Shown here piece by piece: positions 17,932 through 58,298 of a stretch of DNA of 64,000 nt; positions within the stretch are counted from its first letter, which is position 1; every line of letters begins with the position of its first letter. Below the pieces are notes generated by a model. It did no database searches. It was not told where the DNA came from and saw only the letters and a list, made by a program, of their open reading frames with translations. Location of the stretch: the NCBI GenBank assembly GCA_052388375.1, contig JBQTIG010000038.1, forward strand, positions 927 through 64,926. The letters are read 5' to 3'. Position numbers and translations under genes: made by a program. This stretch comes from Planctomycetaceae bacterium (GTDB lineage: Bacteria > Planctomycetota > PLA2).

Positions 17932-19146
17932 ATGAGCCAGAGCGCGACGTCTCCCCAGGGGGTGCTGCGCGCCCCGCGGGTGCTCTTCGACCTCAAGTGC
18001 CTGCTGCTCGCCCTTGCGGGTTTCGTGGTCCTCTATCTCGTCAACCTCGGGCTGGAGAAGTGGTTCGGCCAGGGGAATCCGATCGGGCAGATGGTCACCC
18101 TTCTCGCGACCGAGATCGGTCGCGTGGCGTTCCTCGGTGACGGCTTCCGGCGTGCCATGGACGGAGTCTGGGGCCTGCAGCCGCACGCCTTGAACTGGTG
18201 GCAGGGGCTCGTGACCGCCTTCCTCTTTTTCGCGACGTGGGCGGTCTTCGGGGGAGCTCTCCTGCGCACCTGCGCGCTGCGGCTCACCCGTGACGAGCCG
18301 ATCTCCCTCTCGCAGGCGCTCGTGTTTTCCGGAAGGAACCTTCGGGCGTTCCTCATCGCGCCGGTGCTGGTCGCCGTCGTGGCGGGGTTCTTCCTCGTCT
18401 GCATCGCCGCGGCCGGCTTCGTGATCAGCCTCCCGTTCATCGGCTCGTGGATCCTGGTCCTCCTGCTCTGGCCCTTGAGCCTCCTCGCGGCGCTGCTGGC
18501 GATCCTGACCCTGGTGGCCGGGCTCTTCGGCCTTCCGCTCATGTGGGCCGGCATCGCCTTCGAGCGGAACGGCGCGCTCGAGGCGCTCTCCCGCGCCTTT
18601 TCCTACATCTTCGCTCGCCCGCTGCAGTTCTTCTTCGGCTACCTGCTCATCTTCGTGTTCATGAGCGTCGTGATCCTGGTGGGCGACTCCTTCGAGGACA
18701 CGGCCAAGGAGTCGGTGCGGGTCTGGGGCGTGCGGGAGTCCTTCAAGGACATCGTCGCCTACCGGATCCCGGACAATGTCGGCGCCCTCGAGCCCGCCCT
18801 TCGGCGGACGATGGAGCAGCGCACCCGCGGCATCGCCGACCTGGACAACATCAGGCACGCCGGCGTGAAGGATTACGTCGCCTTCGCCTGGATGTGGCTC
18901 TTCCTGAGCCTCTTCCTGCTCGCCTTCAAGGCCTACGCGCTCTACGTCTTCCTCGGAGGGACCGCCTCGCTCTATCTCATCCTGCGGCGCGATGTGGACG
19001 GCACGGACGAGGAGGAGGTCTATCTGCCCGACGAGGAGGTCTCCGTCCCGACCCCCGCCGAGCAGCCTCGGTGGGTGGGAGGAGAGAAGCCGGCGGATCC
19101 CGGACCGGGCGGGGCCGGCGCGAGTCCGGGCGATCCGAAGCAGTGA
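17932..19146 (+). CDS. Polytopic membrane protein of unknown function
   Basis: It has at least 7 predicted TM helices, high GC3 and an acidic C-terminal tail. Confidence 0.55.
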   Translation: MSQSATSPQGVLRAPRVLFDLKCLLLALAGFVVLYLVNLGLEKWFGQGNPIGQMVTLLATEIGRVAFLGDGFRRAMDGVWGLQPHALNWWQGLVTAFLFFATWAVFGGALLRTCALRLTRDEPISLSQALVFSGRNLRAFLIAPVLVAVVAGFFLVCIAAAGFVISLPFIGSWILVLLLWPLSLLAALLAILTLVAGLFGLPLMWAGIAFERNGALEALSRAFSYIFARPLQFFFGYLLIFVFMSVVILVGDSFEDTAKESVRVWGVRESFKDIVAYRIPDNVGALEPALRRTMEQRTRGIADLDNIRHAGVKDYVAFAWMWLFLSLFLLAFKAYALYVFLGGTASLYLILRRDVDGTDEEEVYLPDEEVSVPTPAEQPRWVGGEKPADPGPGGAGASPGDPKQ

Positions 19147-20471
19147 AGAGGGGCGCGGTGCGGCTTGGTCCGGACGTGCTCGCGCGTGCCCGCGTCCATC
19201 TGGCGCGCACGGAGGAGGATCTCGCCCGGGCCATCGAGTTCTTCGGCACGTCGCGCGCCCGGGAAATCGTGGAGGGCCATCCGGAGGAGCGCGGATGCAT
19301 CCGGATGCTGGAGTTGGAAGGGACCATCCTCGCGGCGCTCCTCTTCGATCCCCGGCCGCTCGCGATCCGCGGCGCGCCGGTGCCCTGCGCGCGCATCGTC
19401 GAGACCGCGGGCGAGGATGGCCGGCGCCACTTCCGTGAGACCGGGGAATGCGAGCCGTTCGAGTTCCTGCTGGAAGAGCTGCTCGGCTATCTCTGGGCGC
19501 GCTCCTATCCTCTGGTCTACGCCCACGGCGAGGTCGCGCTCTATGCCCGCAAGGGATTCGTCCCCACGTTCCTGCACCCCCGGGCCTACGTGGACGTGGC
19601 GGCGGCCCTGCGCCTCCCCGCCCCCTACCGCGTCCGCCGGCTGAAAACCGACGACATCCGCCGCATCCCGGAGTTGCGGGTGCCCGGCGCCGCCGAGCAG
19701 CCCTCCGTCCTCGCCTCGGGGGTGCCGGCGTTCCACCACTTCTGCGTGGAGAGCCCGGCGCACGGCCTGCGCGGCTGGTTCAGCCTCGAAGTGTCTGCCG
19801 CCTCCCCATGGCACCCCAAGGTGTTCGTGCCCGAAGTGGAGCTCCTGGATCGCGAAGCCGCCTGCACGGTCCTGCGCCACTGCGCCGCGGAGGCGGCACG
19901 ACTCGACCTGACGGAAATCCACTTCAACGTCGGTGCCGGCCATCCCCTCGGCCGGCTCTGTCTCGAGCTGGGCGGGCGCGCCGTGGTCCGCGGCGCCAGC
20001 GCCGACGCGGGGAAGAGCGAGGAGATGCTCTGCCAGGTGGCGCGCGGGCCCCTCCTGAAGGCGCTCCTGCCGGGCATGGGTCAGCGCCTCGCGCGCTCCG
20101 CCTACGCCGAGGAGAACCGCAAGCTGGCGCTGGCTTCGGAGCGCGGCGCCATCCTGCTCGATCTGCGCCGAGGGACGATCCACGCGTCGGCAACCGAGCC
20201 CCCCGCCCCCGACCACGCCCTGATCCTCCCGGATTGGCAGCTCACGCAGCTGCTCGCCGGATATCGCGGAATCCGCGAGGTGGAGTGGCCCACCTCCCCG
20301 GTCGAGGTGGACATCCTGGACGTGCTCTTGCCCAAGGCGCCGCTCTACTCCCTTCCCGACCCCGACCACTGGGACGCGGTCCCTCCGCGGCAACCGCGCT
20401 CGAGCGAGGCAGAGGCGGTGGTGCGCGCTACGACCCTGCCGTGGGCCGCCGTTCCGCCACCAGGATCCTGA
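19143..20471 (+). CDS. GNAT-family acetyltransferase with C-terminal extension (Eis-like)
   Basis: Its GTG start overlaps the upstream stop as GTGA. An acetyl-CoA binding region follows (VYAHGEVALYARKGF). Confidence 0.5.
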   Translation: MKRGAVRLGPDVLARARVHLARTEEDLARAIEFFGTSRAREIVEGHPEERGCIRMLELEGTILAALLFDPRPLAIRGAPVPCARIVETAGEDGRRHFRETGECEPFEFLLEELLGYLWARSYPLVYAHGEVALYARKGFVPTFLHPRAYVDVAAALRLPAPYRVRRLKTDDIRRIPELRVPGAAEQPSVLASGVPAFHHFCVESPAHGLRGWFSLEVSAASPWHPKVFVPEVELLDREAACTVLRHCAAEAARLDLTEIHFNVGAGHPLGRLCLELGGRAVVRGASADAGKSEEMLCQVARGPLLKALLPGMGQRLARSAYAEENRKLALASERGAILLDLRRGTIHASATEPPAPDHALILPDWQLTQLLAGYRGIREVEWPTSPVEVDILDVLLPKAPLYSLPDPDHWDAVPPRQPRSSEAEAVVRATTLPWAAVPPPGS

Positions 20472-21087
20472 GGGAGTGCACGAGAGGGAAGCGCGCGAGA
20501 TCGGCCACGGCTCGAAAGCCGCACCGCGCGAAGCGCGCGGCCATCGCCGCCGGGGTCTCGGGGTGCTTGCCCGGCGCTCGGCCGCGGCGACGCGCCTGCC
20601 AGGCGCGCTTCCTGCAGGTGAAGGATCGCGCATCGAGGTAGGAGGCGAGGACAAAGCGCCCCGCGATGCGGCAGAGCTCGCGGGCGACGCGGTCGCGGAG
20701 CTCCTCGCTCGGGAAGTGGTGGAAGAGGCGGAAGCAGAAGACGGCATCGAAGGCGCGGTCGGCGTACCCGCTCGCCTCGAGGTCGCGCGCCTCCGCGGAG
20801 ATCGCGAGCCCCTCCGCGACGAACCGGGCGCGCGCCAGTTCCACCATGGCGGGCGAGACGTCGGCGGCGGCCACGCGATAGCCCATGAGGGCGAGCTTCG
20901 CGCTCAGGCGTCCCGACCCGCAGGGCGCGTCGAGGACGGTCGCGCCGGCGGGCACATGGCGGAACGCGCGCGCCACCAGCGCCCGCTCGGCTCGGTTCGC
21001 GCGGGTGGGTCGGTCCTTCGTGGCGGCGTACCGCGCGGCGCGATCGGCGTCGTAGTGCTTGCGGTAGGGCTCGACGGGTTGCTGCAC
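20428..21087 (-). CDS. Class I SAM-dependent methyltransferase
   Basis: Motif I reads VLDAPCGSGRLSAKLALMGYRVAAADVS. The 3' end overlaps the convergent GNAT gene by 44 nt. Confidence 0.75.
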   Translation of the reverse strand: MQQPVEPYRKHYDADRAARYAATKDRPTRANRAERALVARAFRHVPAGATVLDAPCGSGRLSAKLALMGYRVAAADVSPAMVELARARFVAEGLAISAEARDLEASGYADRAFDAVFCFRLFHHFPSEELRDRVARELCRIAGRFVLASYLDARSFTCRKRAWQARRRGRAPGKHPETPAAMAARFARCGFRAVADLARFPLVHSLRILVAERRPTAGS

Positions 21088-21149: not shown

Positions 21150-23363
21150 ATGCGCCTGCTGGCCGCCCTCCTCGCGTTCGCCCTCCCCGCCCTCGCGCAG
21201 GGCCTTCCCCCGGCGAGCCGTATCGACGGCTGGACTTCCCAGAAGACGCAGCAGCGTCTGCGCCTCGAATGGGACTCGGTTCCCGACGCCACGCCGATCA
21301 AGCTCCCCGACGGGACCACCGAGCCCGCGCAGTCGCCCTGGCCGTTCCTGCTCTACGTCCAGAATCTCGACACCAAGTCGAGCGAGAAGATCGACGCCAA
21401 CATCCTCTCGGACACCCGCTTCTCCCTCGCTTCGCGAGTCTGCCGGATCATCCGCATCTCCCCCACCAAGGCGATCGACTTGCCCTACCTCGCCGTGGTG
21501 GAGGGCATCAAGGACCCTTCCATCGTCGTGTTCGACCGCGACTTCACCGTGGTCGGCGTTCTCAACGAGCAAAAGGAGTTCACCGCCGACCGCTGCCTGG
21601 GGCTCATGGCGAAGGCGATCGACGCGGCCTGCACGCGGCCCCTGGGGCCGTGGCTGAAGGAGTACGTCACGCTGCTCCAGGACGCGGAGAAGCTCTGGAA
21701 GGAGGAGCGGCGCATCGAGGACCTCGCGTCGCGCTCGGGCGACAAGAGCGAGGCGGACCGCCAGAAGGGGTTCCGGGAGGTAGAGGAGCTGGAACAGGCG
21801 CTCAAGGCGGAGGAGGAGAAGCTGCTCGATCGCGAGGAGGCGCTCAAGGCTTCCATGGCGGTGAAGGCCGAGGAGGCGGCGGCGCTCCCGACGACCACCG
21901 GGAAGGGCCGGGACAAGCGCGCCTTGACGCCGCAGGAGATGGAGGCCATGGGGGCCTTCCGTCGCTTCGCCCGCGACAAGAACCCGCTCGTGCGCGCCGC
22001 CGCGGTGGAGGATCTCGGATCCGTCGATTCGGCCCCCATCGTCGACTTGATCCTCACCGCCGCCAACGACGTCGATGTGCGCGTGATCCGCGCCGCGGGG
22101 GTGGCACTCGGGAAGATGCGCGCTCCCGAATCCCTCGATGCCATGACCGCGGCCCTGGCGGCGGGCAAGTCCTCCACCCGCGAGGCTGCGCTGCTCGGCT
22201 TCGCCCACGGCGTGCCCCACGCCGCCGCGGTGGCCGGCATCGTGGCCTGCCTCGAGAGCGGGAGCGACGACCAGCGCCGCTACGCGATGGAGGCGCTCGC
22301 GCGCCAGCGCGATCCCGCCGCGGTGGAGCCCCTGATCCGCGGGGTGCAGCGCGGACTACCCGCGCTGCGGGTTCTGGCCGCCACCGCCCTGGGCGAGATC
22401 CGCGCGCCGGCGGCGGCGGCCGCTCTGCTCGCCTGCCTCGCAGAGAGCGATTGGTCGCTCAAGAAGGCGGCGGCGGAGGCCCTCGGCAAGATACGCGTGA
22501 GGGAGGCGATCGAACCCCTTCTGGCGCGGCTCGAAGCGGAAGAGGGGCTCATGCTGGAGGTGATCCAGGCGGCGCTCGTCTCCACGACCGGCCAGGACTT
22601 CGGGTACAAGATCGAGAACTGGAAGCGCTGGTGGGTCATGGCCGGTCCCACCTTTCGCGTACCCACCGACGCGGAAGTCTTGAAGGCGAGGGCGCTGGCC
22701 GAGAAGGCGCTCGAGGGCTACGCCAAGCCGGACAAGCGCAAGTACCACAAGATCGAGACCCTCTCGCGCAAGATGGTGTTCATCATCGACATCTCCTCCT
22801 CCATGGGGGACAAGATCATCATCCCGCCGGACGCGCCGGCCTCCGCGGCGGAGGAGTTCCCCGACCGCATCAAGATGGAGATCGCGAAACGGGAGCTGAT
22901 CGAGATCCTCGCGACGCTGGACGGCAACGTCTACTTCAACATCATCGTGTTCGCGGGCCGCGCGAAGCTCTGGCAGGACACTCTGGTGCCGGGCTCGATG
23001 CGCACGGCGGCGATCAAGTTCGTGGCGGACCTGAAGCCGATCGCGCAGGGCGGCCGCAAGTCGGGCGGCGACGAGCAGAAGACCAACACCTACGGCGCCC
23101 TGGCCGCCGCCTTCGAGCAGAGCGACGCCGCCATACCCAACTGGAAGTCGCGGTCGCAGGTGGACACCATCTTCCTCGTGACCGACGGGCTCCCCACGAT
23201 CGGGGACATCGTCGATGTGCCCAAGCTCATCGACGCGGTGACCGAGTGGAACCGCACCCGCGGCGTGGTCATCCACGTCATCTGCTTCAACAAGCAGGAC
23301 GGCCAGCGCCTCGCGCCCTTGGCCACGCGCAACGGCGGGAAGTACGTGCTGCGGGGGTTCTGA
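21150..23363 (+). CDS. Secreted HEAT-repeat + von Willebrand factor A domain protein (paralog 1)
   Basis: A signal peptide is followed by a coiled-coil region, PBS-lyase-type HEAT repeats (LVRAAAVEDLG, VRVIRAAGVALG), a GQDFGYKIENWKRWW motif and a VWA domain with an imperfect MIDAS (FIIDISSSMGD; the canonical DxSxS has I at the second position). Confidence 0.8.
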   Translation: MRLLAALLAFALPALAQGLPPASRIDGWTSQKTQQRLRLEWDSVPDATPIKLPDGTTEPAQSPWPFLLYVQNLDTKSSEKIDANILSDTRFSLASRVCRIIRISPTKAIDLPYLAVVEGIKDPSIVVFDRDFTVVGVLNEQKEFTADRCLGLMAKAIDAACTRPLGPWLKEYVTLLQDAEKLWKEERRIEDLASRSGDKSEADRQKGFREVEELEQALKAEEEKLLDREEALKASMAVKAEEAAALPTTTGKGRDKRALTPQEMEAMGAFRRFARDKNPLVRAAAVEDLGSVDSAPIVDLILTAANDVDVRVIRAAGVALGKMRAPESLDAMTAALAAGKSSTREAALLGFAHGVPHAAAVAGIVACLESGSDDQRRYAMEALARQRDPAAVEPLIRGVQRGLPALRVLAATALGEIRAPAAAAALLACLAESDWSLKKAAAEALGKIRVREAIEPLLARLEAEEGLMLEVIQAALVSTTGQDFGYKIENWKRWWVMAGPTFRVPTDAEVLKARALAEKALEGYAKPDKRKYHKIETLSRKMVFIIDISSSMGDKIIIPPDAPASAAEEFPDRIKMEIAKRELIEILATLDGNVYFNIIVFAGRAKLWQDTLVPGSMRTAAIKFVADLKPIAQGGRKSGGDEQKTNTYGALAAAFEQSDAAIPNWKSRSQVDTIFLVTDGLPTIGDIVDVPKLIDAVTEWNRTRGVVIHVICFNKQDGQRLAPLATRNGGKYVLRGF

Positions 23364-23369
23364 CGCGGC

Positions 23370-24002
23370 CTACGGCAAGGGCCGGTAGGCGAGCGATCCG
23401 GCGTGGTAGCGGTTGGGGGGCAGGGCGCCGTAGTAGTCGTCCACCACATCGGGAAACGCGTCGGGATCCTCCGCGTAGCGTCCGGAACCGACGCTCGCCA
23501 GCAGGCCGTCCCCATCATCGAAGAGGGGAGGAGGGTCGATGGCGAGATCCCCGTGGACGTTTGCGTTGCGGTCGAGGTTCCCGGCGGGATACCCCACCAC
23601 GATCGTCCCCTCGAATCCGGCCTCCAGGAGCACCGGCGCGGCAAGGTCGACGTAGCGGAACCCCCCCTGCAGCGTGCCCCCGCCGGCGGGCAGGTCGACC
23701 GAAGCGACCATCACGCCGGTGCGGTCGTAGATGCGGACGGTGTGGTCGGAGGCGAGCCCGTCCTCCTGCCAGTCGAAGACGCCCAGGGAGGTCACCTCGA
23801 TGTCTCCCTGCAGGACGTCGAAGTCCAGGCCGAGGGAGAATCCCGCCAGGAGCTGGTCCGGCTCGAAGCCGGGCTCGACGGCGTCGAGGTTGGACGAGAA
23901 TGCGTAGACGAGCGGCGCCGGCGGGGCCCCGCTCCCGTTGCAAGCCGCGGCAAGGGAAAGCGCCGACGCGGCCACCGTCTTGAGGATCCATCGGAGTTGC
24001 AT
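23370..24002 (-). CDS. Lipoprotein of unknown function
   Basis: It has a signal peptide with lipobox (LAAACNG) and high GC3. Confidence 0.5.
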   Translation of the reverse strand: MQLRWILKTVAASALSLAAACNGSGAPPAPLVYAFSSNLDAVEPGFEPDQLLAGFSLGLDFDVLQGDIEVTSLGVFDWQEDGLASDHTVRIYDRTGVMVASVDLPAGGGTLQGGFRYVDLAAPVLLEAGFEGTIVVGYPAGNLDRNANVHGDLAIDPPPLFDDGDGLLASVGSGRYAEDPDAFPDVVDDYYGALPPNRYHAGSLAYRPLP

Positions 24003-24307: not shown

Positions 24308-25000
24308 TTACGCCCGCTGCGTCCGGAACGCGAGGCGGCGTTGCATGGTCGAGCCCAGGGCGGCGAGGCGCGCCCGCACCGCCCCCGCCACTTCGCGCGC
24401 GGGCGGAAGGGCGTCGCCCGCGACCACCACACGATTGAAGTATCCCCTTACCTCGATGCAGACGGCGCGAGGAAAGGGCGCGGCAACGGCGCGCAGCAGC
24501 TCCGGCCACGTGCGGCCCGGATGCGGCAGGAGGTTGGTCGCCGCGACTCCGCCGGGCAGGAGCGCGTCGCGCACCATCGCGGGGAGTTCCCCAAAGCTCG
24601 CCTCCGGCTTCGTCGTGCCCGCGACGCCCGTCACCGTGAGGTCCTCGACGATCGCGTGGTAGCTCCCCGGCCTGCCGCGCAGCCAGGCGCCGGCCTCGTT
24701 GCGCGCCAGCCGCACCTCTCCCGCCCAGCCCGCGGCGAGCTCCCGGAACAGCGCTTCCCCTTCGCGCGAGAGATCCACCGCTTCGAGGGCGTGCCCGTAG
24801 CCCATCGCGCGCAGGGGAGCGACGATGCCTCCGCCCGCGAATCCCAGGAGCGCGCAGCGCGGTCCGGGGGCGAGAGCCGCGACGCACGCGGCGAGCAGGT
24901 CGCCGAGGCAGTGCGTGGGGCCCGGCCGGTCGAGGACTTCGCTCAGGATGGCGTCCCCCTCGAGCAGTCGGGCTCCGGTGGCGGTGCGGACGACTCTCAT
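24308..25000 (-). CDS. Spermidine-synthase-like / class I methyltransferase-fold protein
   Basis: A glycine-rich loop (LGFAGGGIVAPL) precedes an acidic residue. The start is ambiguous between ATG 25000 and GTG 25039. Confidence 0.4.
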   Translation of the reverse strand: MRVVRTATGARLLEGDAILSEVLDRPGPTHCLGDLLAACVAALAPGPRCALLGFAGGGIVAPLRAMGYGHALEAVDLSREGEALFRELAAGWAGEVRLARNEAGAWLRGRPGSYHAIVEDLTVTGVAGTTKPEASFGELPAMVRDALLPGGVAATNLLPHPGRTWPELLRAVAAPFPRAVCIEVRGYFNRVVVAGDALPPAREVAGAVRARLAALGSTMQRRLAFRTQRA

Positions 25001-25070
25001 GCGCGCCCGCCACTCTATCCCCGCGCCCGCGACGAGCACGCATTCGCGTCATCCCGTAGGGTGGAGCCGC

Positions 25071-26617: not shown

Positions 26618-27790
26618 CTACTTCTTGGCGTATTGGGTGCGGACGTACTCTTGCCAGCGGGCATGGAGGACGTTGGGGGTGACGCCGAAGGCGTACTCGA
26701 TGCATTGCGCGGCGGTGGGCTTCTCCACGGTGTCGTCGATCTTGTCGAAGATCTTCGCGAATCGGATCGGGTCGGTGGCGATCATCCACTCCACGATCGA
26801 CCAGCTGAGCCCCTGCTCCTCGCCGGACAGTTCGCCGGGTTGGAGCTTCTCGCACCACTGGCCCAGCGGCGCGTCCTTGCCGCGGCGGACGATGTTGAGG
26901 ATGGTCGATTTCCATTCGGGCTTCTGGAACATCGTGGGCGCCTTTCCCTCGGACCAGCAGAAGGTGTTCGGCGAGGTCGCCTCGCGCCGCTCGTAGTAGT
27001 GCGCCAGGCCCTCCTCGAGCCAGGCCGGCGTCTCGCGGTAGTAGTTGCCGGCGCCGTCGGCGAGGTTGTGCGCCACGTTGTGGAAGATCGTGTTGTTCAG
27101 CTGGCGGTCCCCCCCGGGAACCTGCTGGGCCGCGTGGGTGAACATCATGAAGTTCGGCTCGCCCCGGTTGTGGTGCTGGATGCCCGCCTTGTCGTTGGAC
27201 TTGCCGATGAACTGGTCCACGAGGGAGTGGTGGTCGGCGTACTTCTCGAACAGGTAGAGCTCGTAGGGAGCCCCCATGCCGAGGTAGGGCTTGGCGATCG
27301 CCGTGAGCGCGGCGAAGTGGGCGTAGAGCCGCTCCATGCGCACATGGTAGAGGTGCGCCCGCTCGTGGGGGTCGAGCATCGTGCCCTGCAGGCCCGCCGT
27401 GATCTTGGGGAAGATCGCCTTCAGCCGCTCGAAGTCGCTCCAGTAGAAGACGCTGTCGGACGGCTTCACCTTCTCGCCGTGGAGGGTGCTCAGGATCTTG
27501 AAGTGGGGCGTCTGGATGGCGATCCACTTCCCCTCCACCTGGAGCTTCTGCACCAACTCCCCCACCGGCACGCGCATCATGGAGATGGGCTTTCCCTCCT
27601 CCGCCGGCAGTATCCCCTCCTCGATGCACCGGGTGCAGGTCCAGGGGGTGAAGAGGATCTCCAGGGGCGTCCCCGGCGTGCGCGGATGGGACTCATCCAC
27701 GCGATCGGATCCCGCCGCCGCGGGACTCGCGACGGCTACGAACGCCAGGCTGGCGACGAAGGCGACGGACAGGGGGGTGGCCCGCTTCAT
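26618..27790 (-). CDS. Secreted protein of unknown function, in a locally low-GC region
   Basis: It has a signal peptide (MKRATPLSVAFVASLAFVAVASPAAAG). The first ATG is at 27790. GC is about 62% against a flank of about 72%, and the protein is rich in K/N/Y/W/H. Confidence 0.6.
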   Translation of the reverse strand: MKRATPLSVAFVASLAFVAVASPAAAGSDRVDESHPRTPGTPLEILFTPWTCTRCIEEGILPAEEGKPISMMRVPVGELVQKLQVEGKWIAIQTPHFKILSTLHGEKVKPSDSVFYWSDFERLKAIFPKITAGLQGTMLDPHERAHLYHVRMERLYAHFAALTAIAKPYLGMGAPYELYLFEKYADHHSLVDQFIGKSNDKAGIQHHNRGEPNFMMFTHAAQQVPGGDRQLNNTIFHNVAHNLADGAGNYYRETPAWLEEGLAHYYERREATSPNTFCWSEGKAPTMFQKPEWKSTILNIVRRGKDAPLGQWCEKLQPGELSGEEQGLSWSIVEWMIATDPIRFAKIFDKIDDTVEKPTAAQCIEYAFGVTPNVLHARWQEYVRTQYAKK

Positions 27791-27863
27791 GCCCGATCGA
27801 TTATGCAATGAAACGGGCCCTTCCGCTCCCGGAAGGGCCCGCCCGACTGCCGGTTCCCTACGC

Positions 27864-51496: not shown

Positions 51497-51829
51497 TTAG
51501 CCCCTGGTAGAGGATCCCGACGCCTCCTTCGCACGATGAGCCAACACATGATTGACCAGCCGACGAATGGTCGCGTCCGTTGTGCGAAGGCGGACTGTCG
51601 CGCGGAATCGCTTCAGGCCTAGGTTGAGGAGCAGGCGCCCGAGGCACTCGTCGGCAAAGCTCGGGGTGATGGCTTCGATCCCCTCAAAATCCACCAGGAT
51701 CTTCTCACGCCCTCCAAGGCGCCCGACGGCTTCGACCAGTCGCTTGCGAACCATGGCCCCCTGATCGCGGGTGAGGAGGGAGTCGCCCCACGTCACCAGC
51801 CTGATCGGATGCTCACTAGTCGCCACCAA
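51497..51829 (-). CDS. STAS-like domain protein (DUF4325-type anti-sigma antagonist-like)
   Basis: KILVDFEGIEAITPSFADECLGRLL is the DUF4325 pattern. It overlaps the GHKL gene end by 14 nt. Confidence 0.55.
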   Translation of the reverse strand: MVATSEHPIRLVTWGDSLLTRDQGAMVRKRLVEAVGRLGGREKILVDFEGIEAITPSFADECLGRLLLNLGLKRFRATVRLRTTDATIRRLVNHVLAHRAKEASGSSTRG

Positions 51830-53162
51830 AGAAATCCTCCATTTCGAATCCCTGAGGGGCGGGCAGCGAAGCGTACACGTCGCTCATGGGAAGCAGATTC
51901 TCAAGATCGAAGAGAATCGCCACAATCGTACCCTTCCATGCTTTGTGGGATACGGTTTCGGTCCGCCGTCTCCCCATCTTCCGGAACGCGCAAAGGCTCT
52001 TCTCCCCTGAAGTCAGCAGAAAAGTGCCGCCGTTTCGCACGGCGATCTCGCTCACGACGTACAGCCCGTAGCCGGCATGGCCCGGATCGTCGCCGATCCG
52101 TACCGGCCGGCTCGTCACGAGGGGTAGCGTCGCCAGCCTCAGCGGGTCTTCCCCGGCTCGGATTCGGTCTTTTGCGACGCTATTGGTTCCCGCGAGAAAG
52201 CTCAAGTGGATGCCGAAACCCGTATCGACGACTGTTGCGGTCAGTTTCTTCCGCGCCGGGTAGTACTGTGCCGACACGAGCGCCGTCCGCTCGATCCCTG
52301 CATGCCGCTGAACGTTTTCGATGAGTTCCGCAAAGGCCACGAGGAGCGCATTGTGATCCGCCTTGCCGACGAATCCCCGCCGGTCGCAGATGCCGACGAT
52401 CTCCGCGGCAAGGAGATCCGCGCTCGATGCTCTGTCTATCGGAGCGATCGCGACCCGCCAGCCGCCGTCGGCACCCCGGTCCACGTAGAGCTTTCCCTCG
52501 AGCACGTCGTGGAAGCCGATGCGCTGGAGGTAATGCTCCGTCGCGGCGGAGGCACCCTCCAGTTGCGGACGCACGGATCGCTCGATACACCAAGCAGCAA
52601 GGAGGGTCAGCCCCGTCACGTACAGGTGATCCACGTCCGTCAGGTCCAACACGAGCCCGCCGGACGCATCCACCTCCGCCAAGGCGTCCACCAAGACCCG
52701 GATGCCATTGAGGCTTGTGGACTGAGTGGTCAGACCGATACGCGCTGGAGCCTTGCGCTTGCGCACGGAGACCTCCAGAGACTTCGGCGTCTTGGATCCT
52801 CGCAAGACTTCGTCCCCCTCTTCGATAGGGGTCGCACGGCTAGCGAACGGACTTGAACTTCCGCCCTTCATCGCCTGGAGAACCGCGGCACGCAGGTTCT
52901 TGGGGCAGCGTCCCTGACGCGCGATGCTCTTGACGACCACGCGATTCCACCGGTCGTCGCGCATCGCAAGGGATCCGAGGAGGGGAGGGATCGTGCGAAT
53001 CGCGATCGCCGTCGGATGTGATCTCAGGATCTCGAACAGCCGCGCCGCAGCCGGCGCAACGGGGAGAGCCAGGAACTCCGTGGCGAGACTGGGGGGGATC
53101 GGGCCGGCCATTCGTTCATCGAGGAGATCCTGCACGAGCGCGTCAAGGTCGCGGGAAGTCAT
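51816..53162 (-). CDS. GHKL-family ATPase (RsbW/SpoIIAB-like serine kinase fold) with about 280-aa N-terminal extension containing a second STAS-like segment
   Basis: The C-terminus has an N box (FAELIENVQRHAG), G1 (VVDTGFGI) and G2 (GYGLYVV). The mid-region IRVLVDALAEVDASGGLVLDLTDVDHLYVTGLTLL is STAS-like. Confidence 0.6.
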   Translation of the reverse strand: MTSRDLDALVQDLLDERMAGPIPPSLATEFLALPVAPAAARLFEILRSHPTAIAIRTIPPLLGSLAMRDDRWNRVVVKSIARQGRCPKNLRAAVLQAMKGGSSSPFASRATPIEEGDEVLRGSKTPKSLEVSVRKRKAPARIGLTTQSTSLNGIRVLVDALAEVDASGGLVLDLTDVDHLYVTGLTLLAAWCIERSVRPQLEGASAATEHYLQRIGFHDVLEGKLYVDRGADGGWRVAIAPIDRASSADLLAAEIVGICDRRGFVGKADHNALLVAFAELIENVQRHAGIERTALVSAQYYPARKKLTATVVDTGFGIHLSFLAGTNSVAKDRIRAGEDPLRLATLPLVTSRPVRIGDDPGHAGYGLYVVSEIAVRNGGTFLLTSGEKSLCAFRKMGRRRTETVSHKAWKGTIVAILFDLENLLPMSDVYASLPAPQGFEMEDFFGGD

Positions 53163-53421: not shown

Positions 53422-55017
53422 TCAGTCGCTGCCCAGGGGCTTGGGCTTGCGGATGTCGACGCAACTGCCGCCGTTCTGCTCGGCCAGAGCGCGCATGAAG
53501 TCGGCCATCTCGTCGGGGTCCTCGTACTTGTCCGCCTTCTCGATGGCGGGCCGCCCCATGACCAGCGCGATGCAGTGGATGATGACCCGTCGGAAACGGT
53601 TGCAAGCGCGCACCTTCGCCAGGATCTCCTCCGGCACGATGGTCCGCCCGGTGGAGGGCATCCCGTCGCTCAGGAAGTAGATCGTGTCCACCAGCGGGTT
53701 GTCTTCGAAGGCCTGCATCAAGGTGTCGTGGGTGTTGGTGCCGCCCCGCGGCAGGAGCTGCGCCTCGCTCCAGGAGAGCGCGTCCGCCACGTTCTTCGGC
53801 GAGGCGACCACCTCCCCCTTCTTCTGCCAAATGCTCGGCGCCCCGGCGAAGGTCATGACATTGAAGTAGGTCTTCTCGTCGAGGCTGCGGATCGCCTTGT
53901 AGAGCTCCTTCCGAGCCGTTTCGATGCGGTTGGGGTGGTACTCGGGCCAGGCCATCGAGCCGGAGACGTCCACGATGAAGAGCACGCGGTCGGAGAGGAT
54001 CTTGAAATCGAAGAAGCTGGCCACGCTGATGCTCTCGCCCGCGGCGAGCTTGCCCTCCTCGGTGAGGCGGCCCGTCTCCTTGTCGCGCCACCATTTCTCC
54101 CAGACCTCAGGGGCGTAGCGGAAGTCCTGCCCGCTGATTGCCTTGAGCGCGCCGTAGGCCTTCTCCTTCGCGCGCAGGTTGCCCTCCCGCAGGAGCAGCG
54201 TCAATTCGGGGAAGAGCGCCTCGGCCTTTCGTGCGCCCGCAGCGACCGCCGCCGCCTCGCGCACGATGGGCACCTCGTCCTGGAACAGGGCGCGCATCGC
54301 ATCGAGGAGATCGGGGGCGCTTCCCAGGCCGAGGAGCACGTCGGCGGCGGCGAGGCGCAGCCTCCAGTCCGCGGAACCCGCAGCGGCGCGCAGCAGCGCC
54401 TCCGCGCCCGGCCCGCCGATCCGCCCCAGGGCGACGTGGATCTCGAAGAGAAGCGCCATGTCGGGTCGCTCGCGCTTGAGCGCCCGGGCGAGCAGCGCGG
54501 TGAGCGGCTCGCTGGCCTCCTTCGTGCCGAGCACGCCGAGCGCCTGCACGCAGCCGAGCTGGATCTCGTCCACAGGGCTCGAGAGGAGCTTCTCCACGAG
54601 CCACGGGCCCACCTGCGGGTCGGAGGAGAGCGCGAGGGCGCCGCCGACGTAGGATGCGAGCACGGTCCGGGACTCCCGTTGGACGGTCGCCACCATGCGC
54701 TTGACCGCGGCCAGATCCCCGATGCCGCCGATCGAGACCATGGCGTTGATGCGCGCACGGATGTCGGCGTCCTGGTCGAGGATCGCCTGCAGGCGCTTGC
54801 AGGTCTCTTCGTGGCGCACGCCGGCCAGTTCGCGGGCGATCTCGCGGCGCCGGCGCCGTTGCCTCACGTCCTGGTTGCGGGCCAGATCCTGGTACTCCGC
54901 CCACAACTCCTCCAGGCGCTCGTTCGCCGCGCGCGGGTCGGGGGCGCCTTCCTCCTCGGCGGAGAGCAAGGCGGGCGCGAGCATCAGGAGCAGGCTGGCC
55001 GCGACGCGGGCGCGCAT
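53422..55017 (-). CDS. Secreted HEAT-repeat + VWA domain protein (paralog 2)
   Basis: It has a signal peptide, HEAT repeats, a GQDFRYAPEVWEKWW motif and a VWA domain with a DxSxS MIDAS (FIVDVSGSMAW). It shares architecture with 21150-23363. Confidence 0.8.
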   Translation of the reverse strand: MRARVAASLLLMLAPALLSAEEEGAPDPRAANERLEELWAEYQDLARNQDVRQRRRRREIARELAGVRHEETCKRLQAILDQDADIRARINAMVSIGGIGDLAAVKRMVATVQRESRTVLASYVGGALALSSDPQVGPWLVEKLLSSPVDEIQLGCVQALGVLGTKEASEPLTALLARALKRERPDMALLFEIHVALGRIGGPGAEALLRAAAGSADWRLRLAAADVLLGLGSAPDLLDAMRALFQDEVPIVREAAAVAAGARKAEALFPELTLLLREGNLRAKEKAYGALKAISGQDFRYAPEVWEKWWRDKETGRLTEEGKLAAGESISVASFFDFKILSDRVLFIVDVSGSMAWPEYHPNRIETARKELYKAIRSLDEKTYFNVMTFAGAPSIWQKKGEVVASPKNVADALSWSEAQLLPRGGTNTHDTLMQAFEDNPLVDTIYFLSDGMPSTGRTIVPEEILAKVRACNRFRRVIIHCIALVMGRPAIEKADKYEDPDEMADFMRALAEQNGGSCVDIRKPKPLGSD

Positions 55018-55075: not shown

Positions 55076-55807
55076 GTGAAAGTCGCCTTGGTGGAGACGG
55101 ACACCGTCTGGGAGGACGAGAAGGCCAACCGCAGGGCGGTCGAGGAGGCGCTCCCGCCGGCGGACCTAGCCGTCTATCCCGAACTCACGTTCAGCGGGTT
55201 CACCATGAATCCGCGCGTGGACGCGCGGGCGGAACCGTTCCTGCGCGAGTTGGCCGGCCGCACCGGAACCTACGTCGCGGCGGGCTACGTGGCGAAGGGA
55301 CCTGCCAACACGGCGGGCATGGCGGCGCCGGACGGCACCATCCTGGCGCGCTATTCCAAGTTGCACCCGTTCCGTGTCGCGGGGGAGCACGAGCACTACG
55401 TCCGGGGGGACGAGATGCCGGTCATCCCTGTGCGCGGCTTCCAGATCGCGATGCTCATCTGCTACGACCTGCGCTTTCCCGAGGCGTTCCGTGACGCGGC
55501 GCTGCGCGGCGCCGACCTCTTCCTCGTCCTGGCGAACTGGCCCGCGGAGCGTATCGCGCACTGGAGCACGCTCCTGCGCGCCCGCGCCATCGAGAACCAA
55601 GCCTACGTGGTCGGCGTCAACCGCGTGGGCAAGGACCCCGCGCATTCCTACCCGGGTCTCTCCCTCGCGGTGGATCCGCTGGGGGAAGTCCTGCGGGAGG
55701 GGGCGGGGACCGTGGAGCTGGATCCGCTCAAGCCCACGAGGCTGCGCAACAAGTTCCCCGCCCTCAAGGACGTGCGCACCGACCGCTACCGCCTCGGCCC
55801 GGCCTGA
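55076..55807 (+). CDS. Carbon-nitrogen hydrolase (nitrilase superfamily, Nit/omega-amidase-like)
   Basis: The catalytic triad context is E (VYPELTF), K (RYSKLHPF) and C (AMLICYDLRFPE). It has a GTG start. Confidence 0.8.
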   Translation: MKVALVETDTVWEDEKANRRAVEEALPPADLAVYPELTFSGFTMNPRVDARAEPFLRELAGRTGTYVAAGYVAKGPANTAGMAAPDGTILARYSKLHPFRVAGEHEHYVRGDEMPVIPVRGFQIAMLICYDLRFPEAFRDAALRGADLFLVLANWPAERIAHWSTLLRARAIENQAYVVGVNRVGKDPAHSYPGLSLAVDPLGEVLREGAGTVELDPLKPTRLRNKFPALKDVRTDRYRLGPA

Positions 55808-55813
55808 ACGGCG

Positions 55814-56701
55814 TCAGCGCCGCGGGTCGTTCTCGTGGCAGTCCTGGCAGACGACGACCTTGGTCAGCTGATCGCGCGCCTCGCGGTTCAGCTTTTCGAC
55901 CCACTTCTCCATCAGGTCCACCATGAAGACCTTGTCGTCGGCGAGGCGAGGCGGGCGGGGAAGGTCGCGGGCTCCGAGGACGTTCTTGTCCATCGCCGCG
56001 CCGAACTCGTCCTTGTGGCAGCTGGAGCAGCGTACGGTGCCGGGCTCCTTGAGGAGCGGCTGCCAGCGCGCGGCGGGGCCGCGATTCGTCGCGGGCTTCT
56101 CCTCCAGGGCGCGGAGGAAGGTGGTCATGAAGTAGGAGTAGTCCTGCGCGCGCTGCTGCCGCTCCGCCATGCCGCCGGAAGGGTCGTCGGCGTGACAGGT
56201 GGTGCAGGTCACGGCGGTCTCGAGCCGGTCCCCATGCTCGCGGTTGAGCCGCTCCACCCAGTTCATCATGAGCATGATCATGAACCGCTTGTTCTGGCGG
56301 TAGGACTGGACGGCCTCCGCGCCCGGATCCATCTGCTTCATCCCCTCGATGTTGAAGCGCGTCGGGTCGTGGCAGTCCTGGCACGAGATGGGGTTGGACG
56401 GATCGAGGAGCGGCGAGGACCAGGCGGCGTTGGGCTTGGCGTTCTTGGGGAGCGAGACTAGGGCGGCCACGAACTTCTTCATGAAGTGCGCCTTGGCCGC
56501 GGACTCCGCCGCCCGGTCCCCCTGGGCGGGCGGGGCGTCATGAGGGTCGACGTCGCGGGACCGCGGCCGGGGCGCGGGTTGGGGACCCGGCACCGACGCG
56601 CGCTCGGCTTCGGAGAGGCTCTTGAGGAAGTAGCCGAGGAGCAGGCCGAAGAAGAGCCCGACGACGAGCATCGGAGCGGAACGCTGGGTCTGGGCGGCCA
56701 T
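55814..56701 (-). CDS. Membrane-anchored tetraheme cytochrome c (photosynthetic-reaction-centre cytochrome c subunit-like repeats)
   Basis: It has four CxxCH motifs (CQDCH, CTTCH, CSSCH, CQDCH), each preceded by a Met-containing helix (FMIMLMMNWVERLNRE, VFMVDLMEKWVEKLNRE). It has an N-terminal TM anchor. TATAAT lies 9 nt upstream of the ATG. Confidence 0.7.
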   Translation of the reverse strand: MAAQTQRSAPMLVVGLFFGLLLGYFLKSLSEAERASVPGPQPAPRPRSRDVDPHDAPPAQGDRAAESAAKAHFMKKFVAALVSLPKNAKPNAAWSSPLLDPSNPISCQDCHDPTRFNIEGMKQMDPGAEAVQSYRQNKRFMIMLMMNWVERLNREHGDRLETAVTCTTCHADDPSGGMAERQQRAQDYSYFMTTFLRALEEKPATNRGPAARWQPLLKEPGTVRCSSCHKDEFGAAMDKNVLGARDLPRPPRLADDKVFMVDLMEKWVEKLNREARDQLTKVVVCQDCHENDPRR

Positions 56702-56738
56702 CGCGGACGGATTATAGGGCCGCTCGCAAGCCGCGCCG

Positions 56739-58232: not shown

Positions 58233-58298
58233 CCTCCAAGGGTACCCTTTTCCAGCCGACAGAAGGAGGGGAGTAGAATCTCTCACTCCGGCCTCCCC

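What the first reader, a model, noticed from the sequence alone, without database searches (positions are those of the whole stretch)
21150..23363. Paralogous secreted HEAT-repeat + VWA proteins share a GQDF.Y....W.+WW motif
Genes 21150-23363 and 53422-55017 have the same architecture: signal peptide, PBS-lyase HEAT repeats, then a VWA domain with a MIDAS-like motif. They share a short tryptophan-rich junction motif (GQDFGYKIENWKRWW / GQDFRYAPEVWEKWW) that I do not recognise from characterised VWA proteins. The MIDAS has the canonical DxSxS in paralog 2 (DVSGS) but is imperfect in paralog 1 (DISSS). Secreted VWA plus HEAT is unusual, since most bacterial HEAT-VWA proteins are cytoplasmic and BatA/CoxE-like.
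Basis: seen in the sequence. Interest (0 to 1): 0.55.

Follow-up and report, generated by a model that had tools for sequence, protein, structure and literature searches.

The report
Exported HEAT–VWA paralogs with tryptophan cap
Two anciently duplicated, apparently exported HEAT-repeat plus von Willebrand A proteins of an uncultured planctomycete share a real tryptophan-rich motif, but that motif is a widespread, unmodelled last repeat of bacterial HEAT arrays rather than a feature of VWA proteins.

Summary
Both genes exist as described: 21150-23363 (+), 737 aa, and 53422-55017 (-), 531 aa. They are homologous (28% identity over 448 aa). Each has a signal-peptide-like N-terminus, a HEAT array, the GQDF-x6-W-x2-WW motif and a VWA domain.

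- DISSS is a perfect DxSxS. Both proteins have the full MIDAS set.
- Paralog 1 has about 250 extra N-terminal residues.
- The GHKL/DUF4325 neighbours are a strain-specific insertion, absent beside orthologues in four other genomes.

The motif is not VWA-specific. A 43-residue profile finds 3,206 clusters (50% identity). The exact motif occurs in at least eight phyla. Half of the ORFs end within 15 residues of WW. In a census, 84% carry HEAT repeats and 17% VWA.

AlphaFold2 shows the motif as the last HEAT-like helix pair, with a longer loop and three Trp on one helix face. No Pfam, NCBIfam or PDB entry covers it.

Function is inferred: exported, metal-dependent binding adaptors. Interest is modest.

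The parts
21150..23363 (+). Paralog 1 gene (737 aa): signal peptide, N-terminal alpha/beta domain, helical hairpin, HEAT array, Trp hairpin, VWA
   Evidence: ORF. Pfam HEAT_2 82 bits. About 80 full-length orthologue clusters at 46-93% identity. AF2 pLDDT 85.4.
21150..21200 (+). Signal-peptide-like N-terminus MRLLAALLAFALPALA|QG
   Evidence: Heuristic positive in 72 of 80 orthologues, with a conserved 'AQG' site. In AF2 it is a detached low-pLDDT helix, residues 2-16. SignalP was not available.
21219..21629 (+). Conserved N-terminal alpha/beta domain (aa 24-160; 'PWPF', 'DTRF' and 'DLPYL' motifs). Family unknown.
   Evidence: Conserved in A1/A5. AF2 gives strands 66-70, 99-103, 124-128 and 134-138 plus helices, pLDDT about 90. 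No Pfam hit and no PDB sequence hit.
21642..21854 (+). Long antiparallel helical hairpin (aa 165-235)
   Evidence: AF2 helices 165-197 and 201-235.
21930..22589 (+). HEAT array: six canonical helix pairs with a period of about 31 aa, plus helix A (aa 467-480) of the seventh, terminal pair
   Evidence: Pfam HEAT_2 and HEAT_PBS. AF2 helix pairs 279-480. Foldseek match to alphaRep, TMt 0.72.
22590..22655 (+). Trp motif GQDFGYKIENWKRWWVMAGPTF: the loop and helix B of the terminal (seventh) HEAT-like helix pair
   Evidence: W491, W494, W495 conserved in 79-80 of 80. AF2 loop 481-487 and helix 488-501.
22737..23360 (+). VWA domain with a complete MIDAS: DISSS 22788-22802, KTNTY 23079-23093, VTDGL 23178-23192
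   Evidence: Pfam VWA_2 26.6 bits, just under the cut-off of 27. Alignment to ITIH4/ITIH1. Foldseek ITIH4 VWA TMt 0.75, E = 2.9e-7. Coordinates checked.
53422..55017 (-). Paralog 2 gene (531 aa): signal peptide, HEAT array, Trp hairpin, VWA
   Evidence: ORF. Pfam HEAT_2 74 bits, VWA_3 43 bits, VWA_2 36 bits. 100% identical NCBI MAG protein P0121. AF2 pLDDT 89.9, pTM 0.86.
54958..55017 (-). Signal-peptide-like N-terminus MRARVAASLLLMLAPALLSA|EE
   Evidence: Heuristic positive in 42 of 46 orthologues.
54133..54936 (-). HEAT array (aa 28-295)
   Evidence: Pfam. AF2 helix pairs. Foldseek match to alphaRep.
54076..54132 (-). Trp motif GQDFRYAPEVWEKWWRDKE
   Evidence: AF2 loop 296-302 and helix 303-314.
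53425..54018 (-). VWA domain with a complete MIDAS: DVSGS 53956-53970, GGTNT within 53731-53748, SDG within 53656-53676
   Evidence: Pfam VWA_3 and VWA_2 above their cut-offs. Alignment to ITIH4, E = 9e-6. Invariant D350, S352, S354, T427, D451. Coordinates checked.

Best explanation
What it is (shown):
- The two genes are ancient paralogs of an exported HEAT-VWA protein superfamily. Both families are conserved side by side in a clade of uncultured Planctomycetota.
- Each protein has a Sec-type signal peptide, a PBS-type HEAT solenoid and an ITIH-like VWA domain with a complete MIDAS.
- The shared GQDF-x6-W-x2-WW motif is the loop and second helix of the last HEAT-like helix pair. Helix A ends in 'aL..iTG'. 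A loop about 4-5 residues longer than usual carries the conserved D-F. Helix B carries Trp at i, i+3 and i+4, which is one face of the helix.
- This Trp hairpin is a widespread, so far unmodelled element that terminates bacterial HEAT arrays in many phyla. It occurs with or without a following domain. VWA is only one of several partners.

How it works (inferred):
- The Trp face packs onto the preceding repeat and closes the otherwise open hydrophobic core of the solenoid. In HEAT-VWA proteins it also forms the base of the linker to the VWA domain.
- The proteins act in the periplasm or outside the cell as two-surface binding adaptors. The MIDAS cation captures an acidic residue of a partner, and the HEAT groove provides a second protein-binding surface.
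- The partners are unknown.
For: Homology and architecture.

Orthologue conservation of the motif and MIDAS.

Both families on the same contigs, about 25-30 kb apart on opposite strands, with long-range synteny to the window.

Signal-peptide-like N-termini: 72/80 and 42/46.

AF2 models:
- Paralog 2: helix 281-295, loop 296-302, helix 303-314, pLDDT about 87-94, pTM 0.86.
- Paralog 1: seven helix pairs of about 31-aa period. The last has a 7-residue loop instead of 2-4, followed by helix 488-501.

The first half of the motif profile aligns to the final repeat of alphaRep HEAT proteins.

VWA: aligns to ITIH4/ITIH1 with DxSxS, T and D all matched. Foldseek top VWA hits are extracellular ligand-binding VWAs: ITIH, LapA, CLCA1, ANTXR2.

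Generality of the hairpin:
- 3,206 representative clusters at E <= 1e-3.
- Many hits at the extreme C-terminus or in 2-5 copies.
- At least 120 loci in at least 8 phyla.
- 57 of 114 ORFs end within 15 aa of WW.
- HEAT_2 in 105 of 125 hits and VWA in about 21 of 125.
- Other downstream domains.
Against: - No experiment or solved structure exists for any member.
- I could not read model coordinates, so burial of the three Trp and contact with the VWA domain are not measured.
- Export rests on a home-made heuristic, not SignalP.
- Some proteins carry the hairpin without any Pfam-detectable HEAT repeat, in tandem copies: P0200 (5 copies) and P0242 (3 copies). P0218 and P0208 (2 copies each) were scanned only against NCBIfam, which likewise gave no HEAT-related hit. 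This fits an autonomous module better than a mere cap.
- Gene neighbourhoods give no conserved operon partner that would name a ligand.
- The census is biased toward relatives of the query profile.
Confidence: 0.62

Rival explanations
1. The Trp hairpin is an autonomous extracytoplasmic binding or anchoring module, not just a cap. Its Trp- and Arg/Lys-rich amphipathic helix would tether exported HEAT proteins to the membrane interface, to peptidoglycan, or to each other. The HEAT-VWA proteins would then be envelope-anchored MIDAS receptors.
For: - Tandem copies without Pfam-detectable HEAT repeats: P0200 has 5 and P0242 has 3. P0218 and P0208 have 2 each and gave no HEAT-related NCBIfam hit.
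- In P0200 the copies lie between TM1 and the rest of an OppB-type permease, which would be a periplasmic loop (the topology is from general knowledge of OppB/DppB).
- 64 of 111 motif proteins look exported.
- The motif is often at the very C-terminus and followed by basic residues, consensus WW..NK..F.
Against: - 84% of hits sit directly after HEAT repeats.
- AF2 places the helix as a confident, regular continuation of the solenoid.
- The i, i+3, i+4 Trp spacing matches the core-facing positions of an ordinary HEAT helix B.
- No binding data exist.
- My export heuristic is crude.
Confidence: 0.18
2. The proteins are MoxR/BatA-type or CoxE-type VWA partners, or Ro60/Rsr-like HEAT-ring plus VWA RNA-binding proteins. 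In either case they would be cytoplasmic or membrane-anchored chaperone or quality-control factors.
For: - Ro60 structures appear among the Foldseek hits because they combine HEAT-like repeats with a VWA domain.
- There is a weak NCBIfam BatB hit.
Against: - Ro60 TM-score is 0.21 with rmsd about 20 A.
- No TROVE, CoxE or BatA Pfam hit.
- BatB scores 14.6 bits against a cut-off of 350.
- Both families have conserved signal peptides.
- No AAA+ MoxR gene is adjacent in any of seven contexts.
Confidence: 0.04
3. Paralog 2 works together with the adjacent GHKL ATPase and DUF4325 (STAS-like) proteins as a signalling or defence module.
For: In the window the three genes are on the same strand and adjacent, spanning 55017 to 51497.
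Against: - The GHKL/DUF4325 pair is missing next to the 91%-identical orthologue and next to orthologues in three further genomes.
- Synteny shows it as an insertion between the HEAT-VWA gene and the DUF6288 and ferritin genes.
Confidence: 0.03

Closest known systems
PBS-lyase-type HEAT-like repeats (Pfam HEAT_2 PF13646 / HEAT_PBS PF03130; structurally the alphaRep scaffold, e.g. PDB 3LTJ, 4XL5)
   Same: - Repeat period of about 31 aa, helix A-turn-helix B.
- Pfam scores are far above the cut-off.
- Foldseek TMt is 0.6-0.8.
- Helix A and the 'ITG' turn of the motif align to the last alphaRep repeat.
   Different: - The terminal repeat has a longer loop with conserved Q-D-F-G, and a helix B whose three core positions are Trp.
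- Neither Pfam model nor any solved structure covers this part.
- The alphaRep C-cap has no Trp (sequence seen).
VWA domain of inter-alpha-trypsin inhibitor heavy chains (ITIH1/ITIH4; PDB 6FPY, 9C4F) and Pfam VWA_3
   Same: - Best sequence and structure match for both VWA domains.
- DxSxS, T and D MIDAS residues all align.
- Extracellular, ligand-binding type.
   Different: - No VIT domain; a HEAT array sits in front instead.
- Identity is only about 20-27%.
- Paralog 1 has a conserved insertion of about 20 residues after the DxSxS loop.
Ro60/Rsr (HEAT-like ring + VWA)
   Same: The combination of alpha-solenoid and MIDAS VWA in one chain.
   Different: - Ro60 is cytoplasmic and RNA-binding with a TROVE module.
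- Here there are signal peptides, no TROVE hit, and TM 0.21.
BatA/BatB and CoxE-type bacterial VWA proteins
   Same: A VWA domain with a MIDAS.
   Different: - Those families have no HEAT repeats as far as I know (from memory).
- BatB scores 14.6 bits against 350, and there is no CoxE Pfam hit.
- No MoxR neighbour.

Membership tests
HEAT repeat proteins (Pfam HEAT_2 PF13646) | Score above the Pfam gathering cut-off (27.7 bits) | tested here: met
   82.0 bits (paralog 1) and 74.3 bits (paralog 2).
HEAT repeat proteins | Solenoid of antiparallel helix pairs | tested here: met
   AF2 helix pairs with a period of about 31 aa. Foldseek match to alphaRep, TMt 0.63-0.73.
VWA domain (Pfam VWA_2 / VWA_3) | Score above the gathering cut-off (27 bits) | tested here: inconclusive
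   Paralog 2 meets it (VWA_3 43.2, VWA_2 36.4). Paralog 1 is just below (VWA_2 26.6, VWA_3 21.5).
VWA domain | Rossmann-like alpha/beta fold superposable on solved VWA domains | tested here: met
   Match to the ITIH4 VWA: TMt 0.73 (paralog 2) and 0.75 (paralog 1), E = 8e-8 and 2.9e-7.
VWA domain with functional MIDAS | DxSxS plus a downstream Thr plus a downstream Asp | tested here: met
   - Paralog 1: D547-I-S549-S-S551, T645 (the Thr aligned to ITIH 'GGT'; T647 is also conserved), D679.
- Paralog 2: D350-V-S352-G-S354, T427, D451.
- All are aligned to ITIH and conserved in orthologues.
- Metal binding itself was not tested.
ITIH / VIT-VWA proteins | VIT domain N-terminal to the VWA | tested here: not met
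   No VIT hit. HEAT repeats occupy that position. NCBIfam marine sortase target scores 34 bits against a cut-off of 552.
Ro60/Rsr (TROVE + VWA) | TROVE module and global fold match | tested here: not met
   No TROVE Pfam hit. Foldseek TM 0.21, rmsd about 20 A.
BatA/BatB aerotolerance VWA proteins | NCBIfam BatB model cut-off | tested here: not met
   14.6 bits against a cut-off of 350.
CoxE-type VWA (PF05762) | Pfam VWA_CoxE hit | tested here: not met
   Absent from the Pfam hits at E <= 0.1.
Phycobilin lyase / NblB HEAT proteins | NCBIfam equivalog cut-offs (300-330 bits) | tested here: not met
   CpcE 34.1 bits and NblB 30.4 bits. This is generic repeat similarity only.
MoxR-associated VWA systems | Adjacent MoxR-type AAA+ ATPase gene | tested here: not met
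   None among the immediate neighbours in seven contexts or in the window neighbours scanned.
Sec-exported proteins | Cleavable N-terminal signal peptide | tested here: inconclusive
   - A home-made n/h/c-region heuristic is positive for both proteins and for 72/80 and 42/46 orthologues.
- The 'AQG' site is conserved.
- SignalP was not available and there is no localisation data.

The most novel reading that the evidence does not exclude
The Trp hairpin (consensus aL..iTGqDFG.D...W..WW..nk..F) is an undescribed, autonomous module of about 35 residues found in exported proteins. It occurs in more than 3,000 protein clusters across at least eight bacterial phyla. On this reading it does more than cap HEAT arrays: it tethers or oligomerises envelope proteins at the membrane interface or on peptidoglycan. 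The HEAT-VWA families would then be envelope-anchored, metal-dependent receptors.
Probability: 0.17. Interest if true: 0.55.

Novelty: new variant of a known kind. Interest (0 to 1): 0.3.

Why it matters
- HEAT and VWA are both well-known binding domains, so the proteins themselves are ordinary members of known kinds.
- What is not in the libraries I could check (Pfam-A 2025, NCBIfam 20, PDB sequences) is the Trp-rich terminal hairpin. A literal-string search of 8 million papers also found nothing relevant. The hairpin turns out to be very common in bacterial HEAT proteins that mostly look exported.
- A dedicated profile would improve domain-boundary annotation for thousands of 'HEAT repeat domain-containing' proteins.
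- A profile could also give a natural C-cap for designed HEAT-like scaffolds.
- If the hairpin has a binding role of its own, it would point to how these abundant planctomycete envelope proteins are positioned.
- Nothing here bears on a long-standing open question.

Tried and rejected
- **Word-index search with the motif alignment.** The 43-aa version found only 22 candidates and no hits, which wasted one capped search. The exhaustive profile search replaced it.
- **Literature string search** for WxxWW, WRRWW, GQDFG and similar. It returned only antimicrobial-peptide and unrelated papers.
- **Pfam and NCBIfam scans of motif-only small proteins**. No model covers the Trp part.
- **PDB profile search with the motif**. 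Only the helix A half matches alphaRep.
- **N-terminal domain of paralog 1.** No Pfam hit and no PDB sequence hit. The whole-model Foldseek list was dominated by HEAT and VWA matches. A thioredoxin-like fold is my guess from the strand/helix order and was not tested.
- **Cluster-member names for ten motif proteins**. Almost no taxonomy came back; one is Candidatus Omnitrophota.
- **PADLOC**. Generic HEAT-ARM hits for the two paralogs, and only weak partial DrmA N-terminal hits for the GHKL/DUF4325 pair.
- **Gene-context search for a conserved partner**. Only loose synteny and no operon partner.
- **Rejected readings:** Ro60-like, BatA/CoxE-like, phycobilin lyase, and linkage to GHKL/STAS.
Full report
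**1. The observation**

The window is 70.7% G+C. ORF 21150-23363 (+) encodes 737 aa and ORF 53422-55017 (-) encodes 531 aa. In each case the start is the first possible one after an upstream stop.

Pfam results:
- Paralog 1: HEAT_2 82 bits, HEAT_PBS 45 bits, VWA_2 26.6 bits (cut-off 27).
- Paralog 2: HEAT_2 74 bits, VWA_3 43 bits, VWA_2 36 bits.

BLASTP aligns the two over 448 residues at 28% identity, E = 9e-28. The alignment runs through the HEAT array, the motif and the VWA domain.

A six-frame regular-expression scan finds G.DF.[YF]...W..WW only twice in 64 kb, at 22590-22634 and 54088-54132. These are homologous positions in the two proteins. The motif is therefore shared by descent, not by chance.

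No NCBIfam model reaches its cut-off for either protein.

**2.

*MIDAS.* DISSS is D-x-S-x-S exactly.
- In paralog 1 it aligns to ITIH1 'DISGS', KTNT aligns to 'GGTN', and VTDG to 'LTDG'.
- Paralog 2 aligns the same way to ITIH4, E = 9e-6.
- In 80 orthologues of paralog 1, D547, S551 and D679 are invariant, and S549, T645 and T647 are at least 90% conserved.
- In 54 orthologues of paralog 2, D350, S352, S354, T427 and D451 are invariant.
- Both MIDAS sites are complete.

*Architecture.* The two are not identical. The AlphaFold2 model of paralog 1 (80-sequence alignment, pLDDT 85.4, pTM 0.69) shows these parts:
- A detached N-terminal helix, residues 2-16.
- A conserved alpha/beta domain, residues 24-160.
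- A long helical hairpin, 165-197 and 201-235.
- Seven helix pairs, 261-501.
- One further helix, 507-520.
- The VWA domain, 530-737.

Paralog 2 (pLDDT 89.9, pTM 0.86) goes from the signal helix straight into HEAT repeats (28-295). These are followed by the motif and the VWA domain (334-531).

The extra N-terminal domain of paralog 1 has no Pfam hit and no PDB sequence relative.

**3. Orthologues and paralogy**

- Paralog 1 has about 85 full-length clusters at 46-93% identity.
- Where the source names these clusters, they are 'HEAT repeat domain-containing protein' from Planctomycetota MAGs, apart from one partial protein labelled Myxococcota.
- Paralog 2 has about 65 clusters. They include a 100% identical NCBI protein from a 'Planctomycetaceae bacterium' MAG.
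- The two families occur on the same contigs.
- In ENA contig k141_854744 they lie about 25 kb apart on opposite strands, as in the window.
- tblastn shows gene-by-gene synteny between that contig and the window across both regions.
- Each family is about 50-57% identical between genomes, against 28% between the paralogs. The duplication is therefore old.

**4. Is the motif conserved?**

Yes.
- Family 1: G481 78/80, D483 78/80, W491 80/80, W494 79/80, W495 80/80.
- Family 2: D298 53/54, W306 54/54, W309 53/54, W310 40/54.

In addition, 15 more distant HEAT-VWA proteins (483-920 aa) carry the motif, or a degenerate version in one case, 35-55 residues before their DxSxS. Nearly all of them begin with a hydrophobic, signal-like segment.

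**5. Is it a VWA feature?**

No.

*First sign.* The same sequence ('ITGQDFGTD...WRRWWQTQK') sits at the extreme C-terminus of HEAT-only proteins found in the first search.

*Profile search.* A 43-position profile of the motif region was searched against 1.84 billion representative proteins.
- It found 3,206 proteins at E <= 1e-3 and 54 at E <= 1e-10.
- Among the best 144, the motif is often within a few residues of the C-terminus.
- It often occurs in 2-5 copies per protein.
- It is also found in proteins of 35-150 aa.

*Consensus.* 200 instances give A-L-x-x-[IL]-T-G-Q-D-F-G-x-D-x-x-x-W-x-x-W-W-x-x-N-K-x-x-F.

*Genome scan.* An exact back-translated pattern (GQDFG-x5-W-x2-WW) was scanned over one genome per GTDB species.
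- Most loci are from Planctomycetota. Others are from Acidobacteriota, Chloroflexota, Verrucomicrobiota, Bacteroidota, Desulfobacterota/Thermodesulfobacteriota, Nitrospirota, Bdellovibrionota and Proteobacteria.
- About 0.5 chance matches were expected, by my own arithmetic.
- Of 114 ORFs not cut by a contig end, 57 stop within 15 residues of WW, 14 within 16-40, 13 within 41-150, and 30 continue for more than 150 residues.
- The long continuations are VWA_3, PT-HINT, FGE-sulfatase, DUF3179 or further HEAT repeats.

*Pfam census.* In 125 profile hits, HEAT_2 is present in 105 (84%) and a VWA domain in about 21 (17%). This census is biased toward relatives of the query.

**6. What the motif is structurally**

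- In both models it forms helix A, a loop and helix B, and continues the solenoid.
- In paralog 1 the six preceding pairs have 2-4-residue inter-helix loops. The last pair has a 7-residue loop (481-487, GQDFGYK) before helix 488-501.
- In paralog 2 the loop is 296-302 and the helix is 303-314.
- The first 29 positions of the motif profile align to the last repeat of alphaRep proteins ('...AADALGEIGGERVRAA'). No PDB chain matches the Trp part.
- Trp at i, i+3 and i+4 lies on one helix face. These are the positions that face the core in an ordinary HEAT helix B. That correspondence is inferred from the repeat pattern; I could not read coordinates to measure burial.
- No Pfam-A or NCBIfam model covers the Trp part.
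- A full-text string search found nothing relevant.

**7. Location**

- Both N-termini have a basic residue, an uncharged hydrophobic core of about 10-12 residues and a small-x-small site.
- The same heuristic is positive for 72/80 and 42/46 orthologues. The failures are mostly truncated gene calls that start just after the signal peptide.
- The 'AQG' site is conserved in family 1.
- There is no lipobox Cys.
- Among generic motif-bearing proteins, 64 of 111 look exported.
- In P0200, five hairpins sit between TM1 and the remainder of an OppB-type permease. That position is periplasmic in the accepted OppB/DppB topology (general knowledge).
- All of this is suggestive only. SignalP was not available.

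**8. Gene context**

*GHKL and DUF4325.* The GHKL-like gene (51816-53111, HATPase_c E = 3e-4) and the DUF4325 gene (51497-51826) follow paralog 2 on the same strand. They are absent beside:
- the 91%-identical orthologue;
- the 53% orthologue, which has ferritin downstream and a GAF-SpoIIE gene upstream;
- the 49% orthologue, which has a Fasciclin/SOUL gene downstream;
- the 45% orthologue.

Synteny shows the pair as an insertion.

*Upstream of paralog 2.* In the closer genomes a block is conserved upstream. It consists of a B12-radical-SAM gene, an exported protein of about 500 aa, a membrane-anchored tetrahaem cytochrome and a CN_hydrolase.

*Paralog 1.* A convergent DUF1570/peptidase-MA-like gene (26618-27808) is conserved downstream in three genomes. 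Two unknown genes upstream (17932-19146 and 19179-20471) are conserved in one of them.

None of this names a ligand. No MoxR ATPase is adjacent anywhere.

**9. Mechanism**

*Shown:*
- domain composition;
- a complete MIDAS residue set in both proteins;
- the helix-loop-helix nature and position of the motif;
- its conservation and spread.

*Inferred:*
- The Trp face closes the C-terminal end of the solenoid.
- The proteins are exported.
- The VWA domain binds an acidic residue of a partner through a divalent cation, as in ITIH, integrin I-domains and ANTXR2 (established VWA biology).
- The HEAT groove supplies a second binding surface.

The best VWA structural matches are all extracellular ligand-binding domains: ITIH1/4, LapA vWFA, CLCA1 and ANTXR2.

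*Main rival.* The hairpin may be an autonomous binding or anchoring unit. This reading is kept alive by tandem, HEAT-free copies (P0200, P0242, P0218, P0208) and by the basic tail after WW.

*Rejected.* Ro60-like, BatA/CoxE-like, phycobilin-lyase and GHKL-linked readings fail their defining tests (see the membership table).

**10. Verdict**

The motif is real, conserved and unmodelled, but it is a general terminal element of bacterial HEAT arrays. Exported HEAT-VWA proteins are common in this lineage.
- The proteins are new members of known kinds.
- The hairpin is a new variant of the HEAT repeat and is worth a profile model.
- Interest is modest.

Noticed in passing
window 51497-53111 (-): A GHKL-like ATPase (431 aa) and a DUF4325 protein (109 aa) form a strain-specific insertion between paralog 2 and the DUF6288/PDZ gene. 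The pair is absent from the 91%-identical relative. Both proteins give weak partial hits to the N-terminal part of a PADLOC 'DrmA' model (E = 1e-9 and 4e-8), so this may be a small mobile defence or signalling cassette.
   Followed up: partly
P0200 (667 aa, JGI metagenome protein; not in the window): Five tandem Trp hairpins, with no detectable HEAT repeats, are inserted after TM1 of an OppB/DppB-type ABC permease. This is presumably the periplasmic loop.
   Followed up: partly
L026, L049, L052, L057, L082, L098, L099, L122 (Isosphaeraceae and relatives): The Trp hairpin is followed by a sequence resembling a pretoxin-HINT domain ('...WW.DQ.GY.Y.S' then HSCF...GIHRFWKAG...VHDNS). Pfam confirmed this for L026 only (PT-HINT, E = 6e-18). 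The other loci are judged by eye. Other loci have FGE-sulfatase (L121) or DUF3179 (L097; L107 by eye) after the hairpin.
   Followed up: partly
window 21219-21629 (+), aa 24-160 of paralog 1: A well-conserved alpha/beta domain with invariant P65 and near-invariant W64/F66 ('PWPF'), and 'DTRF', 'DLPYL' and 'DRDF.VVG' motifs. It has no Pfam or PDB sequence match. The strand/helix order suggests a thioredoxin-like fold without CxxC; this was not tested.
   Followed up: partly
window 55076-59882: A gene block is conserved upstream of paralog 2 in three other genomes. Its members are a CN_hydrolase (55076-55777, +), a membrane-anchored tetrahaem cytochrome c (55814-56818, -), an exported protein of about 480 aa (56739 to about 58190, -) and a B12-binding radical SAM enzyme (about 58299-59882, +).
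   Followed up: partly
window 26618-27808 (-): A DUF1570 / peptidase-MA-like protein (396 aa) is conserved convergent to paralog 1 orthologues in three genomes. In the window it is separated from paralog 1 by about 3.2 kb of inserted genes, including a DUF4082 protein (23370-24002) and an unknown ORF (24308-25039).
   Followed up: partly
window 20428-21087 (-): A class I SAM methyltransferase gene is inserted between paralog 1 and its conserved upstream neighbours. It is absent at this position in the syntenic contig k141_854744.
   Followed up: no
L002 8638-9954 (relative's contig): In the 53%-identical relative, a GAF-SpoIIE (PP2C) phosphatase gene sits directly upstream of the paralog 2 orthologue on the same strand. 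The window instead has a GHKL/STAS-like pair downstream. Both are partner-switching-type components, which may be coincidence.
   Followed up: no
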